Positions 36,944-59,028 are shown, numbered from the stretch's first letter. The stretch is 64,000 nucleotides of DNA from Nitrospinota bacterium (GCA_026706735.1 JAPOYD010000021.1:5659-69658), one strand, 5' to 3'. Notes: generated by a model not told the origin, from the letters alone. Translations and numbers: made by a program.

Positions 36944-36955
36944 CTATCAACCTCC

Positions 36956-44624: not shown

Positions 44625-44660
44625 ACACCCCTACGGGAAAACCGGAAACAAAAAAGAAAA

Positions 44661-44687
44661 TGGATTCCGGCATGCGCCGGAATGACG
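44661..44687. repeat. Solo family-2 palindrome (TGGATTCCGGCATGCGCCGGAATGACG).
   Basis: A variant of the 28-bp inverted repeat that flanks the GIY-YIG gene. Confidence 0.5.
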
Positions 44688-44794
44688 AACCATCCCCGGC
44701 ATTTCCTCTTTCTTCGTCCAGGTTCAACCCCCCACCGGTGCAGTAAGGGCTTCGCCCTTGAACGGCATTGCCAGCCGACGAGAGAGAAGAGAAC

Positions 44795-44965
44795 CACTCC
44801 CCCCTTGAGAGGGAGTCGACGAGGTAAGGGCGTAAGCCCGCAAGCGAGTCGGTGGGGGGAGTTTCTTCAGTGGCATATCCCCCCACCGAATCGGCCTTCG
44901 CCCAAGGGCTCGGCCTCTTCGTCTGGCTTTCCCCTCGGGAAGCCAGACCCTCAAGGGGGGGAGTG
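44795..44965. mobile_element. Family-1 MITE-like element, copy B.
   Basis: CACTCCCCCCTTGAGAGGG ... CCCTCAAGGGGGGGGAGTG with the same internal core (GGGCGTAAGCCCGCAAG...GGTGGGGGG...CCCCCCACCGAATCGGCCTTCGCCC). Confidence 0.7.
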
Positions 44966-45156
44966 AAATCCAAAATCGCTTCCCGGCGGTTTTTCAACAA
45001 GCCCCGCTTCGGTCGCGATTGATCCTCAAAGGGGAGAGTGCTTTTTCTCTTCTCACCCGGCGGCGGTTTTGACACGCTTAAGCCGGGATGTGGTAAGATT
45101 TATGGTTCCCGGCCGGGGACATAAAGGCCGAATCAAACCCAAGGAGGCGTGACGCC

Positions 45157-45510
45157 ATGAAGGTGATGAACTACAAGGACGCGGAACTCAAGGCAGAGAA
45201 GGCGGCCAGGGGCGCGGGCATCCGCTGGCTGCTCAGCGAGCGCGACGGCGAGACCGGAATGGCGATGCGGGTCATCGAGATAGAGGCGGGCGGGCAGACA
45301 CCCGACCATTCCCACTCCTGGGAGCATCAGGTGTTCATGCTCAAGGGCGAGGGGCGCGTGATCGCCGGCGGCGAGACGCGGGCCATCGCGCCGGGCTCGG
45401 CCATATTCGTGGCGCCCGGCGAGAACCACACCTTCCACAACGATTCGGACGAGACCATGGAGTTCGTCTGCATGATTCCCGTGAGCGCTACCAAGGCGTA
45501 TGAGCACTAG
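45157..45510 (+). CDS. Cupin-domain protein.
   Basis: Cupin_2 motifs (PDHSHSWEHQVFMLKGEG...PGENHTFHN). The ATG is preceded by AAGGAGG. Confidence 0.75.
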   Translation: MKVMNYKDAELKAEKAARGAGIRWLLSERDGETGMAMRVIEIEAGGQTPDHSHSWEHQVFMLKGEGRVIAGGETRAIAPGSAIFVAPGENHTFHNDSDETMEFVCMIPVSATKAYEH

Positions 45511-45589
45511 AGCGGGAGTTGCGCTTTTCCCGCCTTGAATTTCCGTAAAATTCGATAAAATAGGATAAATTCACGGGGTTTTTCGGTAC

Positions 45590-45770
45590 ATTTCCGCAAA
45601 TTTTTGAGGGGAAATGCGCGGATTTGCGGGGAATTGCGGGCGCGTAACCCGCGCAAATGCGGGGAACTGCGCGGGTGAAAATCCTCCTCCCGCAGAAACA
45701 TCGTGAGGATACCACGGCTCCGCAGGGGTGCGCGCTGCGGCAACTGCGGGGAATTGCGGGGCTGGAACCA
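45590..45770. promoter_or_regulatory. Cluster of repeated TGCGGGGAA(T/C)TGCG(G) motifs with a GCGGGCGCG..CCCGCGC palindrome.
   Basis: At least three copies (atttgcggggaattgcggg; aaatgcggggaactgcgcggg; caactgcggggaattgcgggg) lie at the high-GC/low-GC junction upstream of the GAF-GGDEF gene. Confidence 0.35.
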
Positions 45771-46092
45771 AGGGCGGGCGTTCGTCCCGGGCGTCCGCGA
45801 ATACCACAATATGTAGTCTCAAAAAATGATTTCTTACACAATATATGGACCATCCCGACTCATCTGCGGAAAAATCACCAGAAAATTTATTTTTTACAAC
45901 AACAACTCATTATATATCAATAAGTTATAATTATTTATGCAGGAATCGCTTTAAGCGGAGGGATAAGGCCAAATTATTTTATTTCATTTAATATCAATAA
46001 ATACAACAGATTATGATGACTAATGAAAAAATTACTTGAAATAAATTCCAGGCATTTGATATATTCCGGAACGTCCCAATCCGTCCCGTCGG

Positions 46093-47556
46093 GTGTCAGC
46101 AATGACGAATCTGGAAAGAGATCTTTTCTCCCTCATCACGCTCGTCAGCAACGTGACGGAAGCGTATTCCGCCTGCTTATTCCTTGAAAACAAACGCCGT
46201 AAGACTTATCAGCTCACCACGTACCACAGCCTGAGTCCATATATTCTCGCGGATGCTTCGGTCGATGTGGGCCAGGGCTTCATGGGTTGGGTTTTGGAGA
46301 ACAACGAGCCGTTAAGCGTCAATCAGTTCGACAAAGACACCCTGGTTCTCGGCTATTACAGCAGGAATGAGGATATCAAGTCCTTCATGGCGACCCCCCT
46401 GCCTTCTTCAATCAACAAAGGGGCGCTCGCCATCGACAGCAAAAAAAGCTGGTGCTTCACGTCCAGAGACCAAAAGATACTCGCGGGGTTCGCCCAGCAA
46501 TTCGCCTATCTTGCAGACGGTGCCATGACGAGCGTTCAAATGGAGCGACGCTCCATGAACGTTCCCGCCTTCAGCAGATACCTGACTTCGCTTCGATCCA
46601 GCGAGAACGAAGGTCAATTGTTGAATGCGATATGCCAGGTACCGCGCGAGTTGCTTCCCTTCGACGCCTGCTTCCTCGTCCTCATTGACGAGGAAGCAGG
46701 CTTCCCCCGTCTTGTCCGAACTTCTGGATTTGGAGAACTCTTCCTGGGCGAAGTCACCATTAGTGAACGCGCAAGCCTGGCGGGGTATGCACTAAATAAA
46801 AAAGAAAGCTTAAGGCTCACGGATCTGAAGGGGAAAAAAGGAACCAGACCACTCTTCCATCATGATGAACCCCAGTTCGATGCGCGTTCCGCCGTGTGCC
46901 TTCCTCTCATCTCAAGAGGTGAAATTCTTGGTTGTCTGGGGTTCACTAGCAAACATCGGGCACAATTTGACGCAACTTCTATTCAACGCGGAGAAATCAT
47001 TGCCGCTATTGTGGCAGATACAATCGCAAATCGGAAAAACGATTTGCGCTGGCAAGCACGTTTAGAAATCGACACCCTCACTGGCGAACCGAATATACAG
47101 TATCTGCATTCTCGTCTTCATGAAATCATCTGCGAGGCAGAAGCAAGGGGGCGCCAACTAGCGTTGCTCAGCATCGCTCCCGATGCTTCATCAGAATTCA
47201 AGGATATATCTCAGGAAGAGGTAATTCTTCAACTCTCGAATTCGCTAAAACAATTCGCTACTGGAAATGATATTTTAGTGCGGCATGAGGGGCCCCGATT
47301 CCTCTTGTTGTTGCAAGACTCCTCCCAAGAATATGCTGAAGCTGTAGCAGACCGAATATTAAATGTCGTTGATCACACCCCCTTCTACTTCGGCGGAAAA
47401 GAGTTCGAAATCACGATTTCAATAGGTGCAGCATGTTTCCCTGAAACTGCGAGAAGCTCAAGAAACCTTATCCAATCATCTCTTGAAGCACTCGGATTCG
47501 CTCAAAAGGGGGGCGGTGTAAATCAACTTTGCTTTATGGGGGGAGATAGTTCATGA
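46093..47556 (+). CDS. Tandem-GAF sensor protein with a degenerate GGDEF domain (predicted non-catalytic).
   Basis: Two GAF-like domains, then a GGDEF fold (IDTLTGEPN..., LALLSIAPD..F, SIGAA). The catalytic site reads RHEGPRF instead of RxGG(D/E)EF. Low GC. Confidence 0.8.
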   Translation: MSAMTNLERDLFSLITLVSNVTEAYSACLFLENKRRKTYQLTTYHSLSPYILADASVDVGQGFMGWVLENNEPLSVNQFDKDTLVLGYYSRNEDIKSFMATPLPSSINKGALAIDSKKSWCFTSRDQKILAGFAQQFAYLADGAMTSVQMERRSMNVPAFSRYLTSLRSSENEGQLLNAICQVPRELLPFDACFLVLIDEEAGFPRLVRTSGFGELFLGEVTISERASLAGYALNKKESLRLTDLKGKKGTRPLFHHDEPQFDARSAVCLPLISRGEILGCLGFTSKHRAQFDATSIQRGEIIAAIVADTIANRKNDLRWQARLEIDTLTGEPNIQYLHSRLHEIICEAEARGRQLALLSIAPDASSEFKDISQEEVILQLSNSLKQFATGNDILVRHEGPRFLLLLQDSSQEYAEAVADRILNVVDHTPFYFGGKEFEITISIGAACFPETARSSRNLIQSSLEALGFAQKGGGVNQLCFMGGDSS

Positions 47557-48590
47557 AATTACATTTTGTAAAGCGTCTCAGATCTTGGATGGGGCCCAAT
47601 ATCGCGATGGACTTAGGGACAGCGAATACACTCGTTTACACAAAAAATGCCGGAATCGTTCTTGATGAACCCTCTGTTGTCGCCTTGAACTCGAATAATG
47701 GAGGAACTGTTCTCGCTGTAGGGAAAAAAGCTAAGGAAATGTACGGTCGGACTCCAGATTCCATTCGGACAATTCGCCCCATGAAAGATGGAGTAATTGC
47801 AGATTTTGACGTAACCAAAGCCATGATACGCCATTTTGTGGGTACAATAGTACCCAAAAGATCTTTCAGCCGACCTACAATGATGGTCTGTGTTCCTTCA
47901 GGAATCACCAGCGTTGAAATGAAAGCCGTAATTGATTCCGCCACTCAATGTGGGGCCGGCAAGGTCCATCTAATCGAAGAACCCATGGCTGCGGCCATCG
48001 GAAGCAAACTGCCAATCCATGAAATCGCCGGCTCTATGATTGTTGATATTGGGGGAGGAACAACCGAAATGGCCGTTATCTCTCAATATGCCGTTGCATA
48101 TTCAGAATCTCTACGCATGGCGGGAGATGCAATGGACGAATGCATACAACGCCACATCAAAAGACACCACGGTTTATCGATCGGCTCATTCGAGGCTGAA
48201 CGTGTCAAAATGGAAATCGGAGCAGCAGCTCCACTTACAGAGCCGCTTGAAATGGAAATTTCTGGCGCAGATGTTTCCACCGGCATGCCCCGCACCATCA
48301 AGTTATCCGATGAATCAGTGCGAGAAGCTCTCGACATTCCTGTGAAAGCTATTGTTGAATCAATTCGAAAAGCGCTGTCCAAAACAAGCCCTGAGTTAGC
48401 TTCAGACATTTACCGAAGAGGAATCGTTTTAGCTGGCGGAGGTTCACTCTTGAAAGGGCTCGGGACAAGGCTCCACAAAGAAACAGGTCTCCCTATTTAT
48501 AGAGTAAAAGACCCACTAACCACTGTCGTCCGTGGTACTGGACACGTACTAGACCACTTAAAAGACTTCAAGCAAGTCTGTCTGAACTGA
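47553..48590 (+). CDS. MreB/Mbl-type actin-like ATPase, a non-canonical paralog.
   Basis: Full-length MreB similarity (DLGTANTLVY, IRPMKDGVIADF, LIEEPMAAAIG, DIGGGTTE, ASDI...GIVLAGGGSLL). It overlaps the upstream stop (ATGA). No mreC/mreD lie downstream. Confidence 0.85.
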   Translation: MKLHFVKRLRSWMGPNIAMDLGTANTLVYTKNAGIVLDEPSVVALNSNNGGTVLAVGKKAKEMYGRTPDSIRTIRPMKDGVIADFDVTKAMIRHFVGTIVPKRSFSRPTMMVCVPSGITSVEMKAVIDSATQCGAGKVHLIEEPMAAAIGSKLPIHEIAGSMIVDIGGGTTEMAVISQYAVAYSESLRMAGDAMDECIQRHIKRHHGLSIGSFEAERVKMEIGAAAPLTEPLEMEISGADVSTGMPRTIKLSDESVREALDIPVKAIVESIRKALSKTSPELASDIYRRGIVLAGGGSLLKGLGTRLHKETGLPIYRVKDPLTTVVRGTGHVLDHLKDFKQVCLN

Positions 48591-48766
48591 TATCCAAGAG
48601 CACCACCCCCCCAAAACCGGGGGCCCGGTCCCATGCGCAATACCGGGTCCCCGGTCCCTTCTAGCAGAGTGACTGTAGAGAGATTTTACTATTATAAATT
48701 ATCCGGTAAAATTAACACATATTTGTCTTTGGTTTTTTAAACCTTTTGTTTCAACAGGAAAGAATA

Positions 48767-49039
48767 ATGGCTCTTTCACAACAAGGCGACTCATACTCAT
48801 TCGAGACATCCATAGAAGACATGAAACTAGTTTACAGGATACTTCATCGCCATATCGGAGAGCACCTTGAGCTTATGGATAGTGCGTTCATGGATGAATT
48901 ACAAATCGCGCTTCAAAAAAAAGCCCAAACAGAAGGAGTGGATATCGGCCATCACGGCGCATGGGACTTATGGCTGGGCAATGATGCGACAACCCCATGT
49001 GAGGAACGTGTAAAAAGACGAAAAACATTCGATAGTTAA
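48767..49039 (+). CDS. Hypothetical small protein (about 90 aa).
   Basis: An ORF downstream of the mreB-like gene with no recognisable domain. Its end overlaps the aroE stop region. Confidence 0.35.
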   Translation: MALSQQGDSYSFETSIEDMKLVYRILHRHIGEHLELMDSAFMDELQIALQKKAQTEGVDIGHHGAWDLWLGNDATTPCEERVKRRKTFDS

Positions 49040-49914
49040 CCTTCGCCTCCGAGACGTAATTCCAATGCTTTATTTAAAACTTCCATCACTATATCTGTAG
49101 GCATATCCACTCCCGTCCACATCTTCCAAGCAGCCGCTGCTTGATATACCAGCCAACCCGTTCCGTGAACAATTTGAGCGCCAGATCGTCTTGCTGCTTT
49201 TAGAAATTCCGTATCAGGAGGAACATAGACCGCATCCGAACAGATACAATCCTCAGGTATAGCGTCTTCGGGAATCGGGGTGGTCGCCATACGTTCGGTG
49301 TCTCCCCACATCCCGAGGCTTGTCGTATTCACGATAATCTCACAACCATCAGCCGCCGAATACAGATCGTCTAAGCCACTACCATTTACCTTGGAAGAAG
49401 GAACGCTCTTCTTCACAAATTGTGCCAACTCTAATGCTTTGTCATATGTTCGATTTCTAATATCAAGGTGAGCCGCTCCGCACTGGGCTATTTTGACGGC
49501 AATGGCTCTCGCTGCCCCTCCTGCACCCAAAACAAGACATTTCTTTTCCCTAGGATGCTCTCCCGTTGTTTCCTCCAAAAATCGGAGCCAACCGATACCA
49601 TCCGTATTGTGGCCGATAAGATTCCCATCTTCTTCAAAAACTATCGTGTTTACTGCACCCATCAAACGGGCATCCTCACTCAATTCATCCATGAGCTTGG
49701 CAACAGCCACCTTGTGCGGAATCGTGATTGTGAGTCCGCGAAATCCCATCGCCTGGGCTCCCCGCACGGCTTCTTCCAAAAAATCCGGGTGCACTTCATA
49801 GGCAAGATAGTGATAATTCAAACCCAACACTTCAGCCGCTTTGTTATGCAGTACAGGTGATAAAATATGGCCTGCCGGATATCCAAGAACTCCCAATGGA
49901 ATCGGATTTAGCAT
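49036..49914 (-). CDS. aroE: Shikimate dehydrogenase.
   Basis: Shikimate-binding N-domain (GNPIxHSxSP-like LGYPAGHILSPVLHN, NTIVFEEDGNLIGHNTDGIG) and a Rossmann motif GAGGAARA. Confidence 0.9.
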   Translation of the reverse strand: MLNPIPLGVLGYPAGHILSPVLHNKAAEVLGLNYHYLAYEVHPDFLEEAVRGAQAMGFRGLTITIPHKVAVAKLMDELSEDARLMGAVNTIVFEEDGNLIGHNTDGIGWLRFLEETTGEHPREKKCLVLGAGGAARAIAVKIAQCGAAHLDIRNRTYDKALELAQFVKKSVPSSKVNGSGLDDLYSAADGCEIIVNTTSLGMWGDTERMATTPIPEDAIPEDCICSDAVYVPPDTEFLKAARRSGAQIVHGTGWLVYQAAAAWKMWTGVDMPTDIVMEVLNKALELRLGGEG

Positions 49915-50119
49915 GAATGTTCTCCTTCACATCATTCCATTAAGTAATACAGCATTCGTGATCAACTTGTAGCTATTAGAATATATACATAGACTAGATA
50001 TTTCGGAGTCTATTCGCAATCGAGAGATCATCGCATCTCTTTAGGTGTTTGAGAGCCTGCAAAGCTCAACATCGCACAAAAGACCAGACATCCACATACG
50101 CCACATATTTGAGGATCTC

Positions 50120-52372
50120 ATGAATGAATTTAAGGTAGCTGGGAAAAAAATCCCCAGATACGATCTGCCAGATAAAGTTGTGGGCACGGCAAAATTCGCA
50201 GCAGACGTCACTGCTGTGCAGCCCCTTGTTGGTTTAATTCTCAGAAGTCCGCTACCACACGCTCGTATCGTTTCTATGGACACGAAGGAAGCAAAAGAAA
50301 TACCGGGCGTGCGAACCGTACTGAAGGGCAATGATTGCCCCCCTCATCTTTTCGGTCTTGAGATCAAAGACATGTGCTGGCTGGCTCGCGATGGGTATGT
50401 CCGATACATCGGAGACCCTGTTGCAGCCATTGCAGCTGAATCGATGGATGCCGCTCAGGCGGCGCTAGATTCTATTCAGGTGGACTATGAAACCCTTGAA
50501 CCTGTGGTGGACCTTTTAGAAGCGCGTGATGGCAAGGGTTCACTCGTACATGAAGATTGGGAAAAAATAGGCTTAGGCCCCAATGGAGAAGGGAATGTAA
50601 TCGGTCGCTATGAAATGGCCATGGGCGATGCAAGTGCCGCTATGGAAAAAGCAGACCACATATTCGAACACACATTCCAAACCCCATACGCGCATTCTGG
50701 ATATATCGAACCTCATGCCTGTACGGTGGAGCCGGGGGCCGATGGAAAATTCACGATTTGGACAACAACGCAAGCACCCTTCGTCATCCGCGACCAAGTC
50801 GCAGCGGCTTTGGGGATTCCACTGACGAAAGTAAAAGTCATCCCTACAGAAATCGGCGGTGGATTCGGAGGTAAGATTCATTCGTTTGTTGAACACATCA
50901 TCGCATTGCTTGCTCTCAAAAGCGGGCGCACTGTGCGCCACGAGATGACGCGTGAAGACGATCATAATGGCGTCAGTCCCAGGCAAGGATTACGAATACA
51001 CTTAAAAACCGGGGTAACCTCTGATGGCAAAATTCTAGCTCGCGAAACAGATGTCATCGTCGACCACGGCGCATATGGCCCCGGCGCTCCGACCCAGGCG
51101 AGTTCCCGCATTCCAATGTTCACCAGCTGCTACAATATCCCTGATTGTTCAGTGACAATGGCGAGCGTCTACACCAACGGACCCATATGCGGCTCGGTTA
51201 GAGGACCATGCGGGCCCCAGTGCTTCTTCGCAACAGAGGTGCATCTCGACATCATCGCGCGCGAACTAGGCATCGGTCCCCTTGAAATCAGGAGAAAAAA
51301 CGCCATTCGAAAAGGCGATACCGGCTTGTTCGGTACGCAGAAAGACGACGGCATGCTCAAAGTTTTGGAAAGCACCGCCAAAGAAGGAAACTGGGGCGAG
51401 ACTATTGAAACGAATGTGGACTTGGAAGGTCCTGGCTGGAAGCTCGGTCGTGGCCTTGCCGTTAGTTTTTGGCGCGGAAGTGGCGGAGCTTCCGCGTGCA
51501 CGGCGCGCTTAAATGCAGACGGTAGCATCCAGTTACTCAGTGGCTCCGTGAACCTTACGGGCGCAACAACCTCGATGTGCCAGATTGCCGCGGAAATGAT
51601 GGGCATCGGTTTTGAGCAAGTATCTTTTGACAGCGGCGATACTGACACTGCTCCGGAATCCATCCACGCGGCGGGCAGCATGCTGACCCGCTCAATGGGC
51701 GCCGCCGTCATCGTTGCCGTAGACGATTTGAAAGAAAAAATTCGAGTCGTAGCCGCCGAAAAACTTGAAGCCGACCCGGATGATTTGAAAATAGAAGCAG
51801 GGTGTATCTCTTCGATATCTACGCCCGAGCGCTCCATGTCATTGAGTGAAGTGGCGAAAATAGCGCCAGGGATTTCAGGTTACATTATGGGCCAAGGTGA
51901 AACACAGACGCCGGCTTTTTGCCCCATCTACACAGCGCAAATCGCGGAGGTGGCCGTGAATCTGGATTCGGGTGAGGTTAAAATTTTGAGGCTGATTTGT
52001 TCACAGGACGTGGGCTTCGCCATGAACCCGACTTCCGTCGTCGGCCAAATGGAAGGTGGGATGCTTCAGGGAATCGGTTTGGCGCTTATGGAGGAACAGC
52101 CTCGAGACGAGGCCGGCAATATCTTTGGCGGAACTCTCCATGAATATCTTCTGCCCACCAGTCTGGATGTACCCGAGTTGAAAACCGTAATGGTTGAGAA
52201 CAAGGCGGATGATACGCCTTATGGTATGAGAGGTGTCGGTGAACCGCCCATACTTGCAGCCCCCGCTGCCATCATGAACGCCATCGCCGATGCGGTGGAG
52301 ACTCGATTTTTTAATATCCCGGTGGGCCCGCATCACATATGCGAAGCGATCGGAAAAAAGAGCGAAACATAG
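50120..52372 (+). CDS. Xanthine dehydrogenase/aldehyde oxidase family molybdopterin-binding subunit (orphan large subunit).
   Basis: An a/b-hammerhead N-terminus and a MoCo-binding core of about 750 aa. No adjacent [2Fe-2S] or FAD subunit genes. The start is trimmed to the ATG at 50120. Confidence 0.85.
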   Translation: MNEFKVAGKKIPRYDLPDKVVGTAKFAADVTAVQPLVGLILRSPLPHARIVSMDTKEAKEIPGVRTVLKGNDCPPHLFGLEIKDMCWLARDGYVRYIGDPVAAIAAESMDAAQAALDSIQVDYETLEPVVDLLEARDGKGSLVHEDWEKIGLGPNGEGNVIGRYEMAMGDASAAMEKADHIFEHTFQTPYAHSGYIEPHACTVEPGADGKFTIWTTTQAPFVIRDQVAAALGIPLTKVKVIPTEIGGGFGGKIHSFVEHIIALLALKSGRTVRHEMTREDDHNGVSPRQGLRIHLKTGVTSDGKILARETDVIVDHGAYGPGAPTQASSRIPMFTSCYNIPDCSVTMASVYTNGPICGSVRGPCGPQCFFATEVHLDIIARELGIGPLEIRRKNAIRKGDTGLFGTQKDDGMLKVLESTAKEGNWGETIETNVDLEGPGWKLGRGLAVSFWRGSGGASACTARLNADGSIQLLSGSVNLTGATTSMCQIAAEMMGIGFEQVSFDSGDTDTAPESIHAAGSMLTRSMGAAVIVAVDDLKEKIRVVAAEKLEADPDDLKIEAGCISSISTPERSMSLSEVAKIAPGISGYIMGQGETQTPAFCPIYTAQIAEVAVNLDSGEVKILRLICSQDVGFAMNPTSVVGQMEGGMLQGIGLALMEEQPRDEAGNIFGGTLHEYLLPTSLDVPELKTVMVENKADDTPYGMRGVGEPPILAAPAAIMNAIADAVETRFFNIPVGPHHICEAIGKKSET

Positions 52373-52480
52373 AAAAAGCGATAGAATTCTTAAATATACA
52401 GCATAGATGACCACTTTCGATTACTTAGACATTTTTATCGCCTTTGGGCTCGAAGGGTTTAGTTACTCTGGTATGAAGTT

Positions 52481-53398
52481 TCATGAAACTTGTGGGACTT
52501 CGGTCTGAATGGCGCGCAGAAGGTGGCCATCCAAATACCACTTCATTGCTTTAACATTCGAATCATCATTCAGAATCGTGATGGCGCCGCATCTTAGCCA
52601 TTCGTTTCTTCTTGTTCGCCAAGTCCAGATAAGCACGCCTCGACAACCGTTGAGCCAGACAGGGCTAAAAGTCAGCTTTTCTCCCATTTGGCCAAGAAGC
52701 TCCATACAAGCCATGGCTACGAAATCATCACCCGTTCTTCGCTCACCTCGGACGACAAGCTCTACACCCGGTGACATGAGCCCTTGCATCAATACCTTGT
52801 CTCGAAATCCGAGCACCTCGACAAATCGCTCGAATACCCGCGATGCTTTTTCCTGTTCATCGGTGGATGAGAAGAAAAGATTCTTTCCCCAGTACTTATG
52901 AATTTGCGCTCGTTTTTTATCCGCATTATCGGCAATTTTGAAAACCTCCTGAATTTTTACTCCCATTGTGGATGCCGCGACCCGGTCACCATCTTCGACC
53001 CCGTCCCTAAGCACGACAACAGCGCGCTGTTCGGGCGTCATGTATTGGAGAGGGAATAAAAACTCGAGCGCAACGCTTGGCCATACAGCACCCGCCTCTA
53101 TCGATTTGGTCACACCATTCGCACTTGAACCCATCGTTTGAATCAAATCGGGCAGGTCGAACTCTTTCAACTCCAACGGTTTTTTCTCTCTCAATCGAGA
53201 AAGCGCCGCTTCCGTACATGCTGTGTACAACCACTCAGGATGATCTTCAATATTTTCTAGAGCCGGGCCCATCTCAATCGCTCGCAACATGGTATCTTGG
53301 ACGATGTCATCCGCATCCAAAATGCTGCCTGTAAGCCGATAGGCGTGTTGGCGTATTACTCCCCAGTATTCTTGAGTGTATTTTTCAAGATCTATCAT
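52481..53398 (-). CDS. ECF sigma factor with a C-terminal SnoaL/NTF2-like extension (ECF41-type).
   Basis: Sigma-70 region 2 (DADDIVQDTMLRA), region 4 (TPEQRAVVVLRD), and a roughly 130-aa C-terminal extension. Confidence 0.7.
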   Translation of the reverse strand: MIDLEKYTQEYWGVIRQHAYRLTGSILDADDIVQDTMLRAIEMGPALENIEDHPEWLYTACTEAALSRLREKKPLELKEFDLPDLIQTMGSSANGVTKSIEAGAVWPSVALEFLFPLQYMTPEQRAVVVLRDGVEDGDRVAASTMGVKIQEVFKIADNADKKRAQIHKYWGKNLFFSSTDEQEKASRVFERFVEVLGFRDKVLMQGLMSPGVELVVRGERRTGDDFVAMACMELLGQMGEKLTFSPVWLNGCRGVLIWTWRTRRNEWLRCGAITILNDDSNVKAMKWYLDGHLLRAIQTEVPQVS

Positions 53399-53407
53399 TA
53401 TCGAAAC

Positions 53408-54091
53408 TCAGTCACTCGCAAACATCTCGCATAAGTCTGAAGCTACAAGCAAATGCGCCTCGGTTTTGTCCCGCACATCATTTTCGCTTACTCCAGGAGC
53501 AAGTTCACGCAGCAAGAGCCCGTCGGTCTCTACCGTAATAAACGCGAGATCAGTGATGATGACATCTACTACGCTTTTGCCTGTCAAAGGCAAAGAACAT
53601 GCCTTTACAATCTTCGGCGCACCTCGCTTTGAAACATGCTCCATTGTGAGGATAACTTTTCGGGCGCCCACGACGAGATCCATCGCACCGCCCATGCCGG
53701 ATATCATCTTGCCAGGGATCGCCCAATTTGCCAGGTCACCGTTCCCAGCGACTTCCATGGCACCGAGTATAGTCACGTCTATATGCCCGCCCCTGACCAT
53801 AGCAAATGACATGGCGCTGTCAAAAAACGAACCTCCCGGCATAATTGTCACGGTTTCTTTACCGGCATTCAGCAGGTCGGGGTCTTCATCTCCCTCGAAT
53901 GGAAAAGGGCCTACGCCCAACACCCCGTTCTCCGAATGGACAGTGACACCGTATTCCTCGGGAATGTAATTGCACACAAGAGTAGGTATACCAAGCCCGA
54001 GATTGACATAACCCCCTCGAGGCACTTCCATGGCTGCGCGCCTGGCGATATCTTGTCTGCTCAAAGGCAAATCAACTCCTCCCAAGGTCAT
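53408..54091 (-). CDS. 3-oxoacid CoA-transferase subunit B.
   Basis: CoA-transferase family I beta-subunit motifs (NLGLGIPT, GMGGAMDLV). The gene overlaps subunit A by 20 nt. Confidence 0.85.
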   Translation of the reverse strand: MTLGGVDLPLSRQDIARRAAMEVPRGGYVNLGLGIPTLVCNYIPEEYGVTVHSENGVLGVGPFPFEGDEDPDLLNAGKETVTIMPGGSFFDSAMSFAMVRGGHIDVTILGAMEVAGNGDLANWAIPGKMISGMGGAMDLVVGARKVILTMEHVSKRGAPKIVKACSLPLTGKSVVDVIITDLAFITVETDGLLLRELAPGVSENDVRDKTEAHLLVASDLCEMFASD

Positions 54092-54791
54092 TTCGTGGTC
54101 GATTCGTCATGATTTCAATAGGCTTTTCAACATCTTCACCTAAAACAACACGTTGCACAAAAATTCCAGGCGTATGCACATTTTCTGGGATAATTTCACC
54201 GACAGGAACAATCTCTTCAACTTCAGCGATAGTCACCTCGGCGGCAGTAGCCATGACGGGATTAAAATTCCGCGCGCTCATCCTGTATATCAGATTCCCA
54301 CGCTCATCTCCTTTCCAAGCCTTAACGAGAGCATAATTCGCACGAATAGGTTCTTCGAATATGTGTTCTTGCCCTTTAATTATTCTTGTCTCTTTTCCTT
54401 CAGCAACGATGGTGCCTGCTCCTGTGGGCGTGAAGAAACCACCAATGCCGGCTCCACCTGCTCGAATGCGTTCTATAAATGTTCCTTGAGGCGAGAGCTC
54501 GACTTCGATTTCCCCTCTCAAAGCTTGCTCTTCATAGACTTTGCAAGCTGGTCCCACACGACTGGCGACAATAGAGCGAATCTGCCGGTTTTCAAACATC
54601 ATACCCACGCCCCAACCGTCCACTCCACCTGCATTTGACACCAAATGGAAATCGCCGACATCTTTTCTTTCACTCAGTGCTTTACATAAATTATGGGCCA
54701 TTCCGCATATGCCAAACCCACCGATAAGAATAGATGCGCCTCTGGGAATATCCGAAACAGCTTCCATGGAACTCGTTATAATTTTGGACAA
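54072..54791 (-). CDS. 3-oxoacid CoA-transferase subunit A.
   Basis: Alpha-subunit motifs (ILIGGFGICGMAHNL, ...GGAGIGGFFTPTGAGT). Confidence 0.85.
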   Translation of the reverse strand: MSKIITSSMEAVSDIPRGASILIGGFGICGMAHNLCKALSERKDVGDFHLVSNAGGVDGWGVGMMFENRQIRSIVASRVGPACKVYEEQALRGEIEVELSPQGTFIERIRAGGAGIGGFFTPTGAGTIVAEGKETRIIKGQEHIFEEPIRANYALVKAWKGDERGNLIYRMSARNFNPVMATAAEVTIAEVEEIVPVGEIIPENVHTPGIFVQRVVLGEDVEKPIEIMTNRPRNDLGRS

Positions 54792-54875
54792 ATGAACAAC
54801 CTCGATAACAAACTTTTAATTCTTCATGCTCGAATGGCTCAAGCATTTGAACATCAATATTCTAATGGAATTTGG

Positions 54876-57086
54876 TTAGCTTTCCATCACTCGCCCCACC
54901 AAAGCTTTCACTGGCGAATACTGTTTATACACAATAACTGTTTTGTCTGTGTGCTTTGCTACGTTTTCAGGAATAGAACCAAAAAGAATCTGTTTATAGA
55001 AACTCTCCCCAGCTGCACCCAGAGCAATAGCGTCATATTTTTCTGACGCTTGGATAATTCCCACGGAAACAGATTTATGCGCGATGATTTGACTCTCTAC
55101 ATGAACGCTGCTCTCATCGTTGATTCGGCCTACGGCTTCACTTAGGCTTTTTTCAACAGAATAGTTATGAGTTGCTCCGGCATCTGGAGAAACAACTGTC
55201 GATACAACAAGTCTGGCATTGTAAGCGCTTGCTATCGTGGCTGTATATCGCTCAGCCAAACGTGCATGTATACCACCTGTTGTGGGCAAGAGAATATTTT
55301 TATATTTCATTTCACCTACAAGTTTCACCAACATAATATCTGCCCGCGCGAGATTCACGACGTCATCGACAATCTCCCCCAATATTCGATTGGCGGTAGA
55401 TGTGTAACCTTTCCAGCCAAGCACGATCAGATCACAATGGCGTTCTCTCGCCGTCTCAAGAATGGCGCGCGCAGGATTACGCCCGATCGTTACAAGAGAG
55501 CTAACTTTGACACCATGCGACTTGGCTCGAACATGGGCCTGCTCCAAAATTCGCCTTTCTCGTTCAACGTAAGAAGTCTCGCGACTCGTCGGTGCCTGCT
55601 CAGGCAAAGATACAACCCGCATGGCAACGATTTCACCGTCATTTTCTTTGGCAATCGCTGAGGCCAGATCTATCAGGGGGGCAACGTTTGTCGGATTAGC
55701 GATGGGAACCAATACGCGGAAATCGCTCTCCTGACCCTCCATGCTGACTTGTGCGACGCGGGACCGCTCACCCGGCAAAAATTCCTCTTCAGCCTGAGAG
55801 CCTTTCCAGGCCAGGAAACCAAGCATCCCCACGATCAGCCATAGAACGGCCATGATTACCGGCTCAGGATGCTGCAATATCAGTGAAAGTAAATATATAT
55901 TTGCGGCAATTCCCATCAATGGCAACAATGGTACGAAGGGAACGCGGAAATGCCTTAGCAGGTTTGGAAATTTTTTCCGGTTATAGATGAGCGCTGCATT
56001 TACCAAAATCAGCGCCAACAATAAAATGGTGTCCGCAAAGTGCGCCAGCTTCTCCAGGTGAAAACTCTGTGCAAAGACAATGATTGTTCCTCCCACTAAA
56101 ATAAGCGAGATAATAGGAGTACGTGTTTTTGGATTGATAGCAGCGATGCCAGAGGGCAAGTGTCCTAGCTGCGCCATGGACAAAACGACTCGCGAACCCG
56201 CCAAAATCGATGCATTAGATGCGGAAATCATTGAGAAAAGTGCACCTACGATAATTACCATCCCCCCGATGGGGCCCAAGAAAAGACGTGCCGCATTGCC
56301 CATCGCCGCTTCCGTATATTCCGTGAGATTCGCGGCAATGATTACAAAAACAACCAATGTATAAAGAATCGTCACGATCGTCATGGAGAGAAAAATCGCT
56401 CGAGGAATTGTTTTCGTGGGATTCGTGACTTCTCCAGCCGATGCCGCGATTGCCGAAAAACCAAAAAAAGTAATAAAAACCAAACCGGCCGTCGCGCCGA
56501 TCTTTGAAATGTCCGTGCTCATTCTCTCGACGAGGGCTTTTGTATCCAAATTCCCCAGCCCGCCATATACAAACCAAAATAAAAGGATGACCTTTCCAGC
56601 GGTAATGAGGATTTGAAAACGAGCCGACTCCTTAGTTCCCTTGATATTAAGCAATATGAGACAAATTAGTCCTATAGTTCCCGATATCTGCTCATAAGGG
56701 GAATGCCAAACGAATTCATTGAAATAAGAAGAAAGGCTGCTGATATAGAAAGCGCATGAAGAAGTGTAGCCAAGCACCAACGTCCATCCAACAAGATAGG
56801 CGAGTGGCGGAGGAAAGGTTCTTCTCGCATAGAGATACCCTTCACCGGATTCCGGATATAAAGATGAGAATTCACAATATGTGAGCGCGGTGAACCCGGC
56901 GACAAGCGCAGCTACAAGAAAAGCGATCACGGCTGATGAGCCAACATCCCTGACCGCAAGACCGGATAGAGTGAAAATACCAGCCGCTATCATTGTTCCG
57001 ACGCCGATCGAAAGTGCGGATGCGAGTCCTAAATCTCGACTGAGCTCGGTCTCAATATGCAGATTGCTGCCGTTTCGTTTGTTCAT
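54876..57086 (-). CDS. APC-family amino-acid permease fused to two C-terminal universal stress protein (UspA) domains.
   Basis: A 12-transmembrane APC core (GVGTMIAAGIFTLSG...) followed by two Usp-like alpha/beta domains. The start is trimmed to MNKRNGS at 57086. Its start overlaps the stop of the hydrolase gene. Confidence 0.8.
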   Translation of the reverse strand: MNKRNGSNLHIETELSRDLGLASALSIGVGTMIAAGIFTLSGLAVRDVGSSAVIAFLVAALVAGFTALTYCEFSSLYPESGEGYLYARRTFPPPLAYLVGWTLVLGYTSSCAFYISSLSSYFNEFVWHSPYEQISGTIGLICLILLNIKGTKESARFQILITAGKVILLFWFVYGGLGNLDTKALVERMSTDISKIGATAGLVFITFFGFSAIAASAGEVTNPTKTIPRAIFLSMTIVTILYTLVVFVIIAANLTEYTEAAMGNAARLFLGPIGGMVIIVGALFSMISASNASILAGSRVVLSMAQLGHLPSGIAAINPKTRTPIISLILVGGTIIVFAQSFHLEKLAHFADTILLLALILVNAALIYNRKKFPNLLRHFRVPFVPLLPLMGIAANIYLLSLILQHPEPVIMAVLWLIVGMLGFLAWKGSQAEEEFLPGERSRVAQVSMEGQESDFRVLVPIANPTNVAPLIDLASAIAKENDGEIVAMRVVSLPEQAPTSRETSYVERERRILEQAHVRAKSHGVKVSSLVTIGRNPARAILETARERHCDLIVLGWKGYTSTANRILGEIVDDVVNLARADIMLVKLVGEMKYKNILLPTTGGIHARLAERYTATIASAYNARLVVSTVVSPDAGATHNYSVEKSLSEAVGRINDESSVHVESQIIAHKSVSVGIIQASEKYDAIALGAAGESFYKQILFGSIPENVAKHTDKTVIVYKQYSPVKALVGRVMES

Positions 57087-57946
57087 TTCAGATCTGCCAG
57101 GAAATCCTTCAGTTCTCTTTGCACGATGGCTGGCGCAGATACGCTCGGGAAATGACCGGCTTTCGCACATACGACCACTCTTGATTTCGTGGGTAGTACA
57201 TTCATCAATAATTTCTGTGATTTCTCGCTAAATCGCTTGCTTTCTCCTCCACGAAAAACCAGAGCAGGGCATTTTGTTCTATTCGCCCAGAAAACAGGGT
57301 CGTAATCACTCGCAGAGGAAGCCTGAAATTTACGTAATCTCAGTATTCTGCTTTTCTCATAAGGAACCCTGTAAACGCCAGTTATGCCGTCGCGTACCAG
57401 AAAATCGCTTAAGAATCGCCTCGTCCTGGCAGGTGGCCAGTTTCCTTCTTCGCTCTCCATGGTGAATTTCTGCGCTTGCGCGAGATCTTTGAACTCCATC
57501 GGGCGACTCCGAGACGCCTCCAGGTTCGCATTGGCACCTGAAGCATCACGCACAGTCGGGTCCATCAACACGGTTGCGGTGACGCGGTCCGGGCGTTTCG
57601 CAGCGACGGCCAAGGCGATTGAAGCGGCGAAGGAATGCCCCATCACCACGAATTGATCCAGCAAAAGTGCATCTGCCAAGCCAATTACGTCTCTTGCAAA
57701 ATCAGCTGCGGCGTCACCCGCACCCGGGTCATCCGTTCTTCCGAATCCTCTTTGATCCGGGCATATCATGCGTATCGAGCCCGCGCCTTCCGCCGCAGCG
57801 TTCCACATGCCACTCTGAATCAGCGAACCATGCAATGCGATAACCGGCGAGAAAAAACTTTTCTTCGCCGGTCTCCAGTCCCGGTAAAACATCTGGAAAT
57901 TCGATACCGTCTCAAAGCCAGCATACCAGCCACCTTTACTGCGCAT
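57083..57946 (-). CDS. Alpha/beta hydrolase.
   Basis: A nucleophile elbow GHSFA and an HGSLIQSGMW oxyanion region. About 287 aa. Confidence 0.8.
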   Translation of the reverse strand: MRSKGGWYAGFETVSNFQMFYRDWRPAKKSFFSPVIALHGSLIQSGMWNAAAEGAGSIRMICPDQRGFGRTDDPGAGDAAADFARDVIGLADALLLDQFVVMGHSFAASIALAVAAKRPDRVTATVLMDPTVRDASGANANLEASRSRPMEFKDLAQAQKFTMESEEGNWPPARTRRFLSDFLVRDGITGVYRVPYEKSRILRLRKFQASSASDYDPVFWANRTKCPALVFRGGESKRFSEKSQKLLMNVLPTKSRVVVCAKAGHFPSVSAPAIVQRELKDFLADLK

Positions 57947-58164
57947 TTGAACCTCTTGGTATGAGAAAGTGAATTTACACGAGGAATATTATCAAATTGG
58001 GAAAACGATGTTCCATTCCCCTGCTGAAGAATTGGCGGATAAACCATGCTCCGCCCTTTCGGCTAATCACCGAGGTTTAGGCCTCATAAAGCACGAGCGA
58101 AATAACCTCGCTCCTCGATATTCCAACTTATTCTATGGCTTTTGGGTCGTAGAGCGTAAATCCC

Positions 58165-58758
58165 TCAGGAAGAATCACCCGTATAGGAAATCGAGACGCG
58201 ACGGGCATAAAAGCGATTTTTTTCGCCGTCGACCGGTTCGAAGAAATGACACGCTTCCAAATCGCGCGGGTACACATGAATGGAAACCGCCAGGTCGTCA
58301 CGCCGATTCCGCACCGTATGGATGTCAGCGCAACCGCAAACCGAATGCTGCCCACCTGCCAAAGGATTGTGCGGCGCATCATTTCTGAGCGCGATTTCAC
58401 CCTCGGCGACTTGCGCATCCGCAAAATAATTAACGACTTCCAGGCCGCCCTCCACCATGCCGAGCATTCCCCAGGCGCCGTCATGATCGTGAATCGGGGT
58501 GCCCTGCCCGGGTTTCCACACCATGGCCGCCACGACGAAACGCTCCGCGGGGTCGCGATACAGCAGATGCCGCGCGTATCCTTCATCCGAGGGCTCGAGC
58601 GCCTCGGGCGGAAGGAAAGACTCCTCACCCAGCAAGCGTTTTAGAGCAGGTTCGGCGGCGCGAATGAAGTCCCGCCCACGCGCGCCTTTATCGTAAATGC
58701 CGGCCAGTTCTTCTGCGAGGCGGATGATGGGTGCGCTGGGTGCGGCGACTGTGTCCAT
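58165..58758 (-). CDS. Cysteine dioxygenase type I-like cupin (thiol dioxygenase family).
   Basis: A 3-His cupin (PIHDHDGAWGM...HTVRN) within a CDO-like sequence of about 197 aa. Confidence 0.7.
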   Translation of the reverse strand: MDTVAAPSAPIIRLAEELAGIYDKGARGRDFIRAAEPALKRLLGEESFLPPEALEPSDEGYARHLLYRDPAERFVVAAMVWKPGQGTPIHDHDGAWGMLGMVEGGLEVVNYFADAQVAEGEIALRNDAPHNPLAGGQHSVCGCADIHTVRNRRDDLAVSIHVYPRDLEACHFFEPVDGEKNRFYARRVSISYTGDSS

Positions 58759-59028
58759 GGCGGCCTCCTGATCGCTGAAATCCGGATAACGCCTTCATAT
58801 TCAATACGATAAATTGCCAGCTTTTTGCCGAAAAACCCCCTGAATTTATCTAATTTTATCTATATTTACTGAAATTATAATTTTCATTATATGGATAATT
58901 TTCACTATCCAGACTGCCCCCTTTCAGTCTCCATGAGGCTCGTCCGGAAGGCGCCGTCCCGGCCGATTCGGGCAGGCTCAAGAGCCGCTTCGCTCCCTCC
59001 GCTCTACCCCTTCAAGCTCCCCGAATAT

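What the first reader, a model, noticed from the sequence alone, without database searches (positions are those of the whole stretch)
46093..48590. Sensor-type GAF-GAF-degenerate-GGDEF protein translationally coupled to a non-canonical MreB paralog, at the head of a low-GC island.
A 487-aa protein has two GAF domains and a GGDEF fold whose active site reads RHEGPRF in place of GG(D/E)EF, so it is probably a c-di-GMP or ligand receptor rather than a cyclase. It ends in ATGA, overlapping the start of a full-length MreB/Mbl homolog. All the nucleotide-binding motifs of MreB are intact. There is no mreC/mreD downstream, only a 90-aa orphan ORF. The pair sits at the left edge of an island of about 48% GC, behind a block of TGCGGGGAATTGCGGG repeats. 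This suggests an accessory, signal-regulated actin-like filament system rather than the housekeeping rod-shape machinery.
Basis: partly seen in the sequence, partly recalled or inferred. Interest (0 to 1): 0.65.

Follow-up and report, generated by a model that had tools for sequence, protein, structure and literature searches.

The report
GAF sensor gene paired with MreB paralog
A sensor-like protein with a dead enzyme domain is encoded back-to-back with a second-type copy of the bacterial actin MreB; the same pair recurs in about 85 genomes from several phyla, including the lab organism Desulfovibrio vulgaris where both genes are dispensable, so it looks like an unstudied, signal-controlled accessory cytoskeleton module.

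Summary
The described sequence features are real. A GAF-GAF-degenerate-GGDEF gene (most likely start ATG 46102, 484 aa) overlaps by ATGA a full-length mreB (47553-48590), and no mreC or mreD follows.

The pairing is not chance. The mreB gene lies directly downstream of a homolog of this GAF protein in essentially every locus where the contig continues. That covers about 85 loci from Nitrospinota, 'Tectomicrobia' and Thermodesulfobacteriota.

In Desulfovibrio vulgaris Hildenborough the pair is DVU1682 (GAF protein) and DVU1681 (mreB-2). Both are non-essential there. mreB-1 (DVU0789), a penicillin-binding protein and rodA are essential.

So the 'accessory MreB paralog with a sensor partner' reading is supported by orthology. 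I could not check whether this Nitrospinaceae genome also carries a canonical mreBCD.

The GGDEF motif is degenerate in every family member and the whole domain is lost in several lineages. The RxxD I-site is not conserved, so a c-di-GMP receptor role is unlikely. The N-terminal GAF domain is the conserved core.

The 48% GC 'island' is real as composition but is not an insertion. It is an ancestral syntenic block of Nitrospinaceae.

I found no paper describing this module.

The parts
45770..46101 (+). Conserved AT-rich 5' region of the operon. It holds a sigma-70-like promoter, TTGAAA-18 nt-TATATT with an extended -10 TG, at 46036-46065.
   Evidence: Promoter scan gives 10 of 12 matches. About 330 nt, including both hexamers and several other blocks, are conserved in relatives L013, L015, L023, L025 and L026.
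46102..47556 (+). GAF-GAF-degenerate-GGDEF protein, 484 aa (the longest ORF starts at GTG 46093). Ortholog of D. vulgaris DVU1682, which lacks the GGDEF-like domain.
   Evidence: The AlphaFold2 model has mean pLDDT 87.9.
46102..46551 (+). GAF1, the family-defining and most conserved domain. Signature: GxGxxGW ... ExIKSFMAxP ... GxLxIDSK....FT....K....F.
   Evidence: Per-domain conservation over 79 family members: GAF1 0.60, GAF2 0.47, GGDEF-like 0.37. Nearly all columns that are at least 90% invariant lie in GAF1.
46609..46971 (+). GAF2 domain.
   Evidence: Pfam GAF_2 matches residues 172-311. Model strands and helices span 189-283.
46972..47064 (+). Long connecting helix (model residues 291-321) between the sensor and the C-terminal domain, as in dimeric sensor-cyclases.
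   Evidence: Secondary structure of the model. The best Foldseek matches are the phytochrome-cyclase PadC (5llw, 6et7) and tandem-GAF PDE5, PDE2 and CyaB2.
47074..47535 (+). GGDEF-fold domain without catalytic residues. The motif position 47281-47301 reads RHEGPRF.
   Evidence: Pfam GGDEF 4.8e-14. Alignment to 4urq. TM-score 0.83 to the T. maritima GGDEF domain. The motif is degenerate in every homolog.
47553..48590 (+). MreB of the GAF-linked 'MreB-2' type, 345 aa. Its start overlaps the upstream stop (ATGA).
   Evidence: It is 57-59% identical to D. vulgaris DVU1681/mreB-2.
48616..48655 (+). 14-bp G+C-rich hairpin just after the mreB stop, with no U-tract. Possible operon end or mRNA stabiliser.
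   Evidence: Minimum free energy -34.9 kcal/mol, z-score -2.7, with 1 of 200 shuffles as stable.
48767..49039 (+). Conserved 90-aa protein of unknown function (motif EGVDIGHHxAWDLWLGN..PCEER). It follows mreB in Nitrospinaceae only. It has its own weak promoter-like site at 48685-48712 and an AGGAAAG Shine-Dalgarno.
   Evidence: tblastn finds it at the same position in about 34 loci. Alignment shows 36 invariant columns. No hit in Pfam, NCBIfam or PADLOC.
45800..58800 (.). Low-GC (46-50%, GC3 about 0.5) block running from the GAF gene to the cysteine-dioxygenase-like gene. It sits in the ancestral position and order, so it is context rather than part of the module.

Best explanation
This is the Nitrospinaceae copy of an ancient two-gene module that has not been described.

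The first gene encodes a cytoplasmic tandem-GAF sensor. It probably forms a parallel dimer and carries a C-terminal GGDEF-fold domain that has lost its catalytic residues.

The second gene is translationally coupled to the first. It encodes a dedicated MreB paralog of the type called MreB-2 in Desulfovibrio, with an intact ATP site.

Most likely mechanism (inferred, not shown): a small molecule binds a GAF pocket. The signal passes down the connecting helix. The sensor then acts directly on its co-made MreB-2, gating filament assembly, membrane attachment or placement. This would tune cell shape or wall growth to physiological state, alongside the canonical, essential MreB-MreCD-PBP2-RodA machine rather than in its place.

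Shown here: the domain anatomy, the dead GGDEF site, the coupling, the conservation of the pair across phyla, and the dispensability of the orthologous pair in D. vulgaris.

Inferred: physical interaction, ligand control, and the presence of a canonical mreBCD elsewhere in this genome.
For: 1. Adjacency is near-universal.
- Five Nitrospinota contexts reached from the GAF side, at 42-100% identity.
- Contexts reached from the MreB side, down to 53% identity, also have a GAF gene upstream. In all, 9 of 9 inspected MreBs from the best-120 list are GAF-linked.
- A scan of one genome per species returned 80 loci. mreB follows the GAF gene in essentially all loci whose contig continues. These include Desulfarculia, Adiutricales, Desulfobacterales and a complete 'Deltaproteobacteria Smac51' chromosome.

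2. Coupling. ATGA overlap with an internal Shine-Dalgarno here. Spacings of -4 to +6 nt in most Nitrospinota and Tectomicrobia loci, and a 1-nt overlap in D. vulgaris.

3. Orthology to DVU1682/DVU1681. Same gene lengths, same overlap and same neighbours: tpiA, secG, rimI and a NUDIX gene confirmed from the table, with the inositol monophosphatase seen in the matching locus. In Tn-seq both are called non-essential in two backgrounds, while mreB-1 DVU0789, PBP DVU0786 and rodA DVU0785 are essential (PMC10102598). Desulfovibrio species carry two mreB genes (PMC4287179), one of them beside mreC (PMC12579266).

4. The MreB is divergent from canonical MreBs. It is 49-52% identical to E. coli, Caulobacter and Geobacillus MreB, which share 58-64% among themselves. 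It scores 346 and 331 bits against Caulobacter and Geobacillus, where E. coli MreB scores 426 and 400. It shares clade substitutions with Desulfobacterota MreB-2: G180A, V182A, T294A, R301K, A326V in E. coli numbering.

5. Sensor anatomy. High-confidence model, tandem GAF plus long helix plus GGDEF fold, matching dimeric sensor-enzymes. GAF1 is the conserved core. No family member keeps GG(D/E)EF, and several lineages lack the domain.
Against: - No direct evidence that the two proteins touch. Conserved coupling is also compatible with co-regulation only.
- I could not inspect a whole Nitrospinota genome, so a canonical mreBCD in this organism is unproven. No second MreB appears within 10 kb in any locus, and none of at least 53% identity is seen on the 2.9-5.2 Mb contigs.
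- The MreB passes the curated MreB thresholds, so by sequence alone it could do the housekeeping job.
- The N-terminal membrane-binding helix is not clearly amphipathic here (hydrophobic moment 0.35, against 0.53 for E. coli and 0.66 for DvH MreB-2).
- No phenotype is known for DVU1681 or DVU1682.
Confidence: 0.55

Rival explanations
1. This is the only MreB of the organism. It does the ordinary rod-shape job, mreC/mreD/PBP2/rodA are simply encoded elsewhere, and the GAF protein is a lineage-specific regulator of the elongasome.
For: - The protein scores above NCBIfam's MreB cutoffs and keeps all nucleotide-binding motifs.
- Every MreB labelled Nitrospinota or Nitrospinae among the best 120 hits that I inspected is GAF-linked, and no other MreB showed up on the near-complete 2.9-3.1 Mb contigs.
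- The protein is well conserved: 99% identical where the GAF partner is 96%, and 71-73% at family level.
Against: - In the one organism with genetics, the orthologous MreB is the dispensable second copy.
- The best-120 list ends at about 53% identity. A canonical copy would be expected at about 50%, as E. coli and Caulobacter MreB are, so it would not have been listed.
- mreB separated from mreCD in all of about 45 Nitrospinota loci would be unusual for a housekeeping copy.
- It evolves no more slowly than FBPase (71% against 78% between the window and L003), unlike typical canonical MreB.
Confidence: 0.3
2. The GAF-GGDEF protein is a c-di-GMP (or GTP) receptor that couples second-messenger levels to MreB.
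For: The GGDEF fold is retained with high model confidence. Degenerate GGDEF domains such as PelD and PopA are known c-di-GMP receptors (own knowledge).
Against: - The I-site RxxD is TGND here and is variable across the family: AGND, NGTD, QGGD, KAED, PDPD and others, with RDGD only in one lineage.
- The FK..ND..GH..GD substrate and metal region is shortened.
- The whole domain is missing in Desulfovibrio and many Desulfobacterota members that still keep the MreB linkage.
Confidence: 0.1
3. The juxtaposition has no functional meaning: it is a chance neighbour, an assembly chimera at a GC boundary, or cargo of a horizontally acquired island.
For: There is a sharp GC change just upstream of the gene, a small repeat cluster at the boundary, and a different upstream neighbourhood from other Nitrospinota.
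Against: - The same junction (cupin gene, conserved leader, GAF gene) occurs in independent assemblies L001, L013, L023 and L026.
- The pair is conserved in about 85 loci across phyla.
- The low-GC block has the ancestral gene order, and ancestral neighbours lie on both sides. FBPase, OmpA and lactamase_B are upstream, beyond a roughly 10-kb RND/cupin insertion, and a VTT-domain gene is downstream.
- There are no tRNA genes in the window and no Rfam hits around the locus (44.2-49.3 kb), and the three module proteins have no PADLOC defence-system hit. I did not look for integrase genes.
Confidence: 0.03

Closest known systems
Desulfovibrio (Nitratidesulfovibrio) vulgaris Hildenborough DVU1682 'GAF domain protein' + DVU1681 'mreB-2'
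   Same: Same gene order and coupling. The GAF1 signature is shared (GxGxxGW, IK[SA]FM, IDSK....F). The MreB is 57-59% identical and carries the same clade-specific substitutions. No mreCD is adjacent.
   Different: The Desulfovibrio protein is GAF-GAF only (344 aa, no GGDEF-like domain). It is followed by an inositol-monophosphatase gene rather than the 90-aa gene. It is known to coexist with an essential mreB-1 cluster, which is unverified for the window's organism. Neither gene has a described function.
Canonical MreB-MreC-MreD(-PBP2-RodA, RodZ) elongasome (E. coli mreBCD; DVU0785-0789)
   Same: Actin-fold MreB with intact ATP-binding motifs that passes the curated MreB family thresholds.
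   Different: No mreC or mreD in this or any of about 95 related loci. It is preceded by a sensor gene instead. Identity to canonical MreBs is 49-52%, against 58-64% among canonical ones.
Accessory MreB paralogs (B. subtilis Mbl/MreBH; Bdellovibrio MreB1/MreB2) - own knowledge
   Same: A second MreB-type filament protein alongside the main one, with specialised or conditional roles.
   Different: Those paralogs are not known to be co-encoded with a dedicated GAF sensor. NCBIfam MreBH scores 358 against a cutoff of 515, so the threshold is not met.
Degenerate-GGDEF receptors: PelD (GAF + degenerate GGDEF), PopA, CdgA - own knowledge
   Same: A GAF domain with a catalytically dead GGDEF fold, used as a signalling or adaptor protein.
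   Different: Those proteins bind c-di-GMP at a conserved RxxD I-site. Here the site is absent or variable and the domain is dispensable in part of the family. There is no membrane anchor.
Dimeric tandem-GAF or phytochrome sensor-effector enzymes (PDE2/5/6, CyaB2, PadC)
   Same: Predicted fold and domain order: two sensor domains, a long signalling helix, then an effector domain.
   Different: The effector domain is inactive. The cNMP-binding NKFDE motif is absent. The output is presumably protein-protein contact.
E. coli csrD-mreB neighbourhood
   Same: A gene for a degenerate GGDEF(-EAL) protein lies immediately upstream of mreB on the same strand.
   Different: CsrD has no GAF domains, is membrane-anchored, sits 300 nt away with no overlap, and precedes the canonical mreBCD. 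Similarity to CsrD is marginal (17 bits). This is probably coincidence; I did not follow it up.
Other bacterial actins: MamK, BeeR, ParM, FtsA
   Same: The actin/HSP70 fold.
   Different: MamK scores 78 bits against a cutoff of 400, BeeR 84 against 530, and FtsA 51 against 176. It is not a member of these families.

Membership tests
MreB/Mbl family (Pfam PF06723; NCBIfam NF010539, TIGR00904) | Whole-protein score above the curated cutoffs | tested here: met
   PF06723 430 bits against 27. NF010539 444 against 293. TIGR00904 436 against 366.
MreB/Mbl family | Intact phosphate-1, connect, phosphate-2 and adenosine motifs | tested here: met
   DLGTANT, EEPMAAAIG, DIGGGTTE and LAGGGSLL align with C. 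crescentus 4cze.
MreB/Mbl family (Gram-negative type) | N-terminal amphipathic membrane-binding helix | tested here: inconclusive
   A 14-residue extension, MKLHFVKRLRSWMG, is present. Its hydrophobic moment is 0.35, mid-rank within the protein, against 0.53 for E. coli and 0.66 for DvH MreB-2.
Canonical rod-shape (elongasome) operon mreBCD | mreC and mreD (often mrdA and rodA) adjacent to mreB | tested here: not met
   No such genes lie downstream here or in the related loci.
Canonical rod-shape (elongasome) operon mreBCD | Being the essential or sole MreB of the genome | not testable with these tools
   Only 10 kb around a match can be fetched. In D. vulgaris the ortholog is the non-essential second copy.
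GAF-linked 'MreB-2' module (DVU1682/DVU1681 type; defined in this report) | mreB immediately downstream of, and usually coupled to, a gene whose N-terminal GAF domain carries the IKSFMAxP / IDSK....FT signature | tested here: met
GAF-linked 'MreB-2' module | Clade substitutions in MreB relative to canonical: G180A, V182A, T294A, R301K, A326V (E. coli numbering) | tested here: met
   These are present in 81-93% of 69 non-redundant GAF-linked MreBs; T294A and R301K are visible in the window protein's LAGGGSLLKGL. There are only three canonical reference sequences, and no Desulfovibrio MreB-1 was available.
Active diguanylate cyclases (GGDEF, PF00990) | GG(D/E)EF active-site motif and metal/substrate residues | tested here: not met
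   The motif reads EGPRF and the FK..ND..GH..GD region is shortened. No member of the family has GG(D/E)EF.
Degenerate-GGDEF c-di-GMP receptors (PelD/PopA type) | RxxD inhibitory-site motif five residues before the GGDEF position | tested here: not met
   It reads TGND here. The Arg is not conserved across the family.
Degenerate-GGDEF c-di-GMP receptors (PelD/PopA type) | Binding of c-di-GMP | not testable with these tools
   Needs a binding assay.
GAF domain superfamily | Pfam GAF/GAF_2 match and GAF fold, twice | tested here: met
   GAF_2 81 bits in 2 stretches. The model matches tandem-GAF structures 3lfv, 1ykd and 3ibj.
cNMP-binding GAF domains (PDE/CyaB type) | NKFDE motif | tested here: not met
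   A regular-expression search found no NK...F...DE arrangement.
MamK / BeeR / MreBH / FtsA actin-like families | Score above the NCBIfam cutoff | tested here: not met
   MamK 78 against 400. BeeR 84 against 530. MreBH 358 against 515. FtsA 51 against 176.
Genomic island (horizontally acquired) | Insertion relative to related genomes, with mobility genes or a tRNA at the border | tested here: not met
   The block is syntenic with L028, L029, L003 and L005, and the flanks are syntenic too. The window holds no tRNA. I did not search for integrase or other mobility genes. The atypical GC is met.

The most novel reading that the evidence does not exclude
A ligand-gated bacterial actin. The tandem-GAF protein binds a metabolite and directly switches polymerisation or membrane binding of its own dedicated MreB paralog. 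This sensor-filament pair is an ancient invention shared by Nitrospinota, 'Tectomicrobia' and Desulfobacterota. In the strongest version, Nitrospinota have lost the canonical copy, so that rod growth of these globally important marine nitrite oxidisers is run by a small-molecule-controlled MreB.
Probability: 0.3. Interest if true: 0.8.

Novelty: new variant of a known kind. Interest (0 to 1): 0.6.

Why it matters
MreB is the central organiser of rod-shaped growth, and how cells feed physiological signals into it is poorly understood.

Here a sensor protein is genetically welded to a distinct MreB lineage in several phyla. These include the main marine nitrite oxidisers and the sulfate reducers.

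No paper in the searchable library mentions the pair. No curated family model exists for the sensor: only generic GAF/GGDEF models hit it.

The orthologous genes are non-essential in D. vulgaris Hildenborough, which has transposon mutants and genetic tools. The idea of a signal-controlled accessory actin cytoskeleton is therefore directly testable there.

This would also clarify what second MreB copies are for in Gram-negative bacteria.

Tried and rejected
- Assembly chimera at the GC boundary. Rejected: the identical cupin-leader-GAF junction occurs in independent MAGs.
- Inserted low-GC island. Rejected: the block and both outer flanks are syntenic with other Nitrospinaceae. The extra DNA is the high-GC RND/cupin segment, plus aroE and the Mo-hydroxylase gene.
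- c-di-GMP I-site receptor. Disfavoured: no RxxD motif.
- MamK, BeeR, MreBH or a defence system. Below cutoffs, and no PADLOC hit.
- RNA elements or tRNA at the boundary. None found.
- Searches for a second, canonical mreB in Nitrospinota were all inconclusive.
  - The best-120 homolog list ends at about 53% identity and contains only the GAF-linked type wherever I checked.
  - 1.56 Mb of flanks hold no second MreB and no MreC or MreD.
  - Literature searches for Nitrospina plus MreB, MreC or rod shape returned nothing useful.
- I could not obtain a Desulfovibrio MreB-1 sequence. The monophyly of the MreB-2 clade against same-phylum canonical copies is therefore untested. The NJ tree has only a Caulobacter outgroup.
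- A possible Poribacteria member (P0219) sits at a contig end, so its downstream gene is unknown.
- The representative-library search shows roughly 100 diverse clusters of family-like size, but without context.
- The N-terminal amphipathic-helix calculation was inconclusive.
- I did not use the third homolog search or the second structure job, because neither could answer the open question.
Full report
WHAT IS THERE. The window carries the ORFs as described. One ORF runs 46093-47556 (487 aa from GTG) and the next 47553-48590 (345 aa), sharing ATGA. A GGAG-type ribosome-binding site lies inside the end of the first gene, so the two are translationally coupled.

The conserved start of the first gene is ATG 46102 (484 aa). 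The GTG is not conserved in relatives, and gene callers use the ATG.

Pfam finds two GAF domains and a GGDEF domain in the first protein, and MreB_Mbl (4e-129) in the second. NCBIfam places the second above the curated MreB thresholds.

Alignment to a solved T. maritima cyclase puts EGPRF at the GGDEF position and TGND at the RxxD I-site. The metal/substrate segment is shortened. All nucleotide-binding motifs of MreB are intact against C. crescentus MreB.

Downstream there is no mreC or mreD. A strong hairpin follows the mreB stop. Then comes a 90-aa gene with its own weak promoter-like site, then an aroE-like gene on the other strand.

A sigma-70-like promoter (TTGAAA-18-TATATT, 46036-46065) lies within a roughly 330-nt AT-rich leader that is conserved among relatives.

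The repeat 'block' amounts to two exact and three degenerate copies of a 16-mer at 45605-45760.

WHOSE GENOME. Homologs of the GAF protein (96% down to 42% identity) come from Nitrospinae/Nitrospinota and 'Tectomicrobia' metagenome-assembled genomes. The nearest species representatives are labelled Nitrospinaceae. The same scaffold junction exists in an ENA assembly and in three independent MAGs, so the window is not a chimera.

THE PAIRING IS CONSERVED FAR BEYOND THIS GENOME. Starting from the GAF side, mreB follows directly in Nitrospinota loci at 74, 59, 48 and 42% identity. The last of these has completely different flanks.

Starting from the MreB side, every context I inspected had a GAF-GAF(-GGDEF) gene just upstream. 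These hits were at 100, 87, 66, 61, 61, 59, 57, 57 and 53% identity.

A scan of one genome per species with a family alignment returned 80 loci. tblastn showed mreB immediately downstream in essentially all loci whose contig continues. The set includes distant members (22-31% identity) in Desulfarculia, Adiutricales, Desulfobacterales and a complete 'Deltaproteobacteria Smac51' chromosome.

Spacing is -4 to +6 nt in most Nitrospinota and Tectomicrobia loci, and up to a few hundred nt in some Desulfobacterota. None of these loci has mreC or mreD nearby or a second mreB. The downstream genes differ by lineage: the 90-aa gene in Nitrospinaceae, an inositol monophosphatase in several Desulfobacterota, and RecG, CvpA and others elsewhere.

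THE LINK TO A MODEL ORGANISM. The MreB hit P0148 is the Nitratidesulfovibrio (Desulfovibrio) vulgaris protein. Its locus has a 344-aa GAF-GAF gene overlapping mreB by one base. It is followed by genes for an inositol monophosphatase, a NUDIX protein, a GNAT acetyltransferase, tpiA and secG.

Gene lengths, overlap and neighbours match DVU1682 ('GAF domain protein'), DVU1681 ('mreB-2') and DVU1679-1676 in the D. vulgaris Hildenborough table of Trotter et al. 2023 (PMC10102598).

In that Tn-seq table DVU1681 and DVU1682 are called non-essential in both backgrounds, with many insertions. mreB-1 (DVU0789), the penicillin-binding protein DVU0786 and rodA DVU0785 are essential.

The D. gigas genome paper states that Desulfovibrio species have two mreB genes, and D. 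gigas three (PMC4287179). In O. alaskensis G20 an mreB lies next to mreC (PMC12579266).

In the lineage where it can be checked, therefore, the GAF-linked MreB is the dispensable second copy beside a canonical essential cluster.

IS THE MREB 'NON-CANONICAL'? Moderately.
- It is 49-52% identical to E. coli, Caulobacter and Geobacillus MreB, whereas those three share 58-64%.
- It scores 346 and 331 bits against Caulobacter and Geobacillus, where E. coli MreB scores 426 and 400.
- Only 79 of the 165 columns that are invariant in the three canonical proteins are kept in at least 90% of the 69 GAF-linked MreBs.
- Several substitutions are shared by the Nitrospinota and Desulfobacterota members: G180A, V182A, T294A, R301K, A326V in E. 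coli numbering.

This fits one divergent orthologous lineage. I had no Desulfovibrio MreB-1 sequence, so monophyly against same-phylum canonical copies is not shown.

THE SENSOR PROTEIN. The AlphaFold2 model is confident (pLDDT 87.9). It shows GAF1, a helical linker, GAF2, a 30-residue helix and a GGDEF fold. It matches dimeric sensor-enzymes: the phytochrome-cyclase PadC, and tandem-GAF PDE5, PDE2 and CyaB2. The C-terminal domain matches a GGDEF domain at TM 0.83.

Across 79 family members no sequence has GG(D/E)EF. The variants include EGPRF, MGTRF, GGDRF, LGHRF, YGDVF and SYGVF. The Arg of RxxD is not conserved. In Desulfovibrio and several other Desulfobacterota the domain is absent altogether.

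Conservation is concentrated in GAF1, with the signature GxGxxGW ... ExIKSFMAxP ... GxLxIDSK....FT....K....F. The cNMP-type NKFDE motif is absent.

The conserved core is therefore GAF-GAF. The dead cyclase domain is an old, optional appendage. A c-di-GMP receptor function is unlikely to be what ties the protein to MreB.

MECHANISM. Shown: the anatomy, the coupling, co-inheritance over very long evolutionary distances, and dispensability of the orthologs in D. vulgaris.

Inferred: the sensor's only universally co-inherited partner is this MreB, and its enzyme output is dead or missing. The simplest model is that the GAF dimer binds a small ligand and acts directly on MreB-2 (assembly, membrane binding or placement). 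That would make a conditional, accessory actin-like system that modulates shape or wall growth.

I put about 0.95 on 'conserved module orthologous to DVU1682/DVU1681'. I put about 0.65 on 'accessory in this genome', about 0.5 on 'direct ligand-controlled regulation', and 0.55 overall.

The main rival (0.3) is that Nitrospinota have only this MreB.

THE 'ISLAND'. The GC drop is real and lies mainly at third codon positions. But the block, from the GAF gene to the cysteine-dioxygenase-like gene, has the same gene order in Nitrospinaceae of 33% to 70% GC.

The ancestral upstream neighbours (K+ channel, MFS, FBPase, OmpA, lactamase_B) are present in the window at 25-35 kb. A VTT-domain gene lies downstream.

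What is inserted is the high-GC segment of about 10 kb with RraA, an RND efflux pump and a cupin gene, plus aroE and a Mo-hydroxylase gene inside the block.

All genus-level relatives share the low GC of the block. A sister lineage shows a milder dip, and more distant ones show none. The cause is unexplained; replacement by DNA from a lower-GC relative is one possibility.

NOVELTY. Second MreB copies and degenerate GGDEF proteins are both known kinds. A dedicated tandem-GAF partner welded to a distinct MreB lineage across phyla is not described in any paper I could find. The sensor also has no specific curated family model. I rate it a new variant of a known kind, interest 0.6.

LIMITS.
- No whole genome could be read.
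- There is no interaction evidence.
- The tree is neighbour-joining with few canonical references.
- The taxonomic labels are those of the depositors.

Noticed in passing
window 36000-45800: A high-GC segment of about 10 kb is inserted between the ancestral lactamase_B/NUDIX neighbours and the GAF gene, relative to other Nitrospinaceae. It holds an RraA-like gene, an RND efflux pump (MFP 38538-39764, ACR_tran 39805-42894, OEP 42884-44308), a repeat-rich non-coding stretch at 44.3-45.1 kb and a cupin gene at 45157-45510.
   Followed up: partly
window 45800-58800; loci L013-L028: The ancestral syntenic block has GC3 of about 0.5, against about 0.75 in its equally ancestral flanks. The dip is shared by all genus-level relatives, is milder in L028, and is absent in L029, L030 and L003. 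The cause is unknown; allelic replacement from a low-GC relative is possible.
   Followed up: partly
window 48767-49039: A 90-aa protein is conserved downstream of mreB in Nitrospinaceae only. It has an invariant motif EGVDIGHHxAWDLWLGN..PCEER and no hit in Pfam, NCBIfam or PADLOC.
   Followed up: partly
window 49036-52372: An aroE-like shikimate dehydrogenase gene (minus strand) and a 775-aa molybdenum hydroxylase gene (Ald_Xan_dh_C/MoCoBD) lie between the 90-aa gene and the sigma-70 gene. They are absent at this place in L028.
   Followed up: no
window 45605-45760: A small cluster of TGCGGGGAATTGCGGG-like repeats (2 exact, 3 degenerate) lies in the high-GC part just after the cupin gene. Single copies occur at the same place in L014, L016 and L017.
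   Followed up: partly
window 45770-46101: The leader upstream of the GAF gene is unusually long, AT-rich and strongly conserved. Invariant blocks include CACAATATATGG, ATATCAATAAGTTATAA and GAATCGCTTTAAG, which suggests regulated expression.
   Followed up: partly
window 27902-29092 and 60109-60981: A Fic/DOC-family protein lies in a 51% GC patch and a NOV_C-domain protein in a 48% GC patch. Both look like small separate insertions.
   Followed up: no
window 18317-21343: A 1008-aa ORF with gene-like codon-position GC has no Pfam match at E <= 1e-5.
   Followed up: no
L095 (E. coli K-12 NC_000913 3397500-3401500): csrD, which encodes a degenerate GGDEF-EAL protein, lies immediately upstream of mreB on the same strand. 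This is a curious parallel to the dead-GGDEF/mreB pairing and is probably coincidental.
   Followed up: no
L008 6540-8014: In one Nitrospinae MAG the partner gene is GAF-GAF only (403 aa). An 88-aa ORF fills the gap before mreB, which may be a decayed GGDEF domain.
   Followed up: no
L028 (= L002) 3830-9237: A restriction-modification-like set (ResIII helicase and two N6_N4 methyltransferases) is inserted at the same spot upstream of the GAF gene where the window has the RND/cupin insertion. The site seems to be an insertion hotspot.
   Followed up: no
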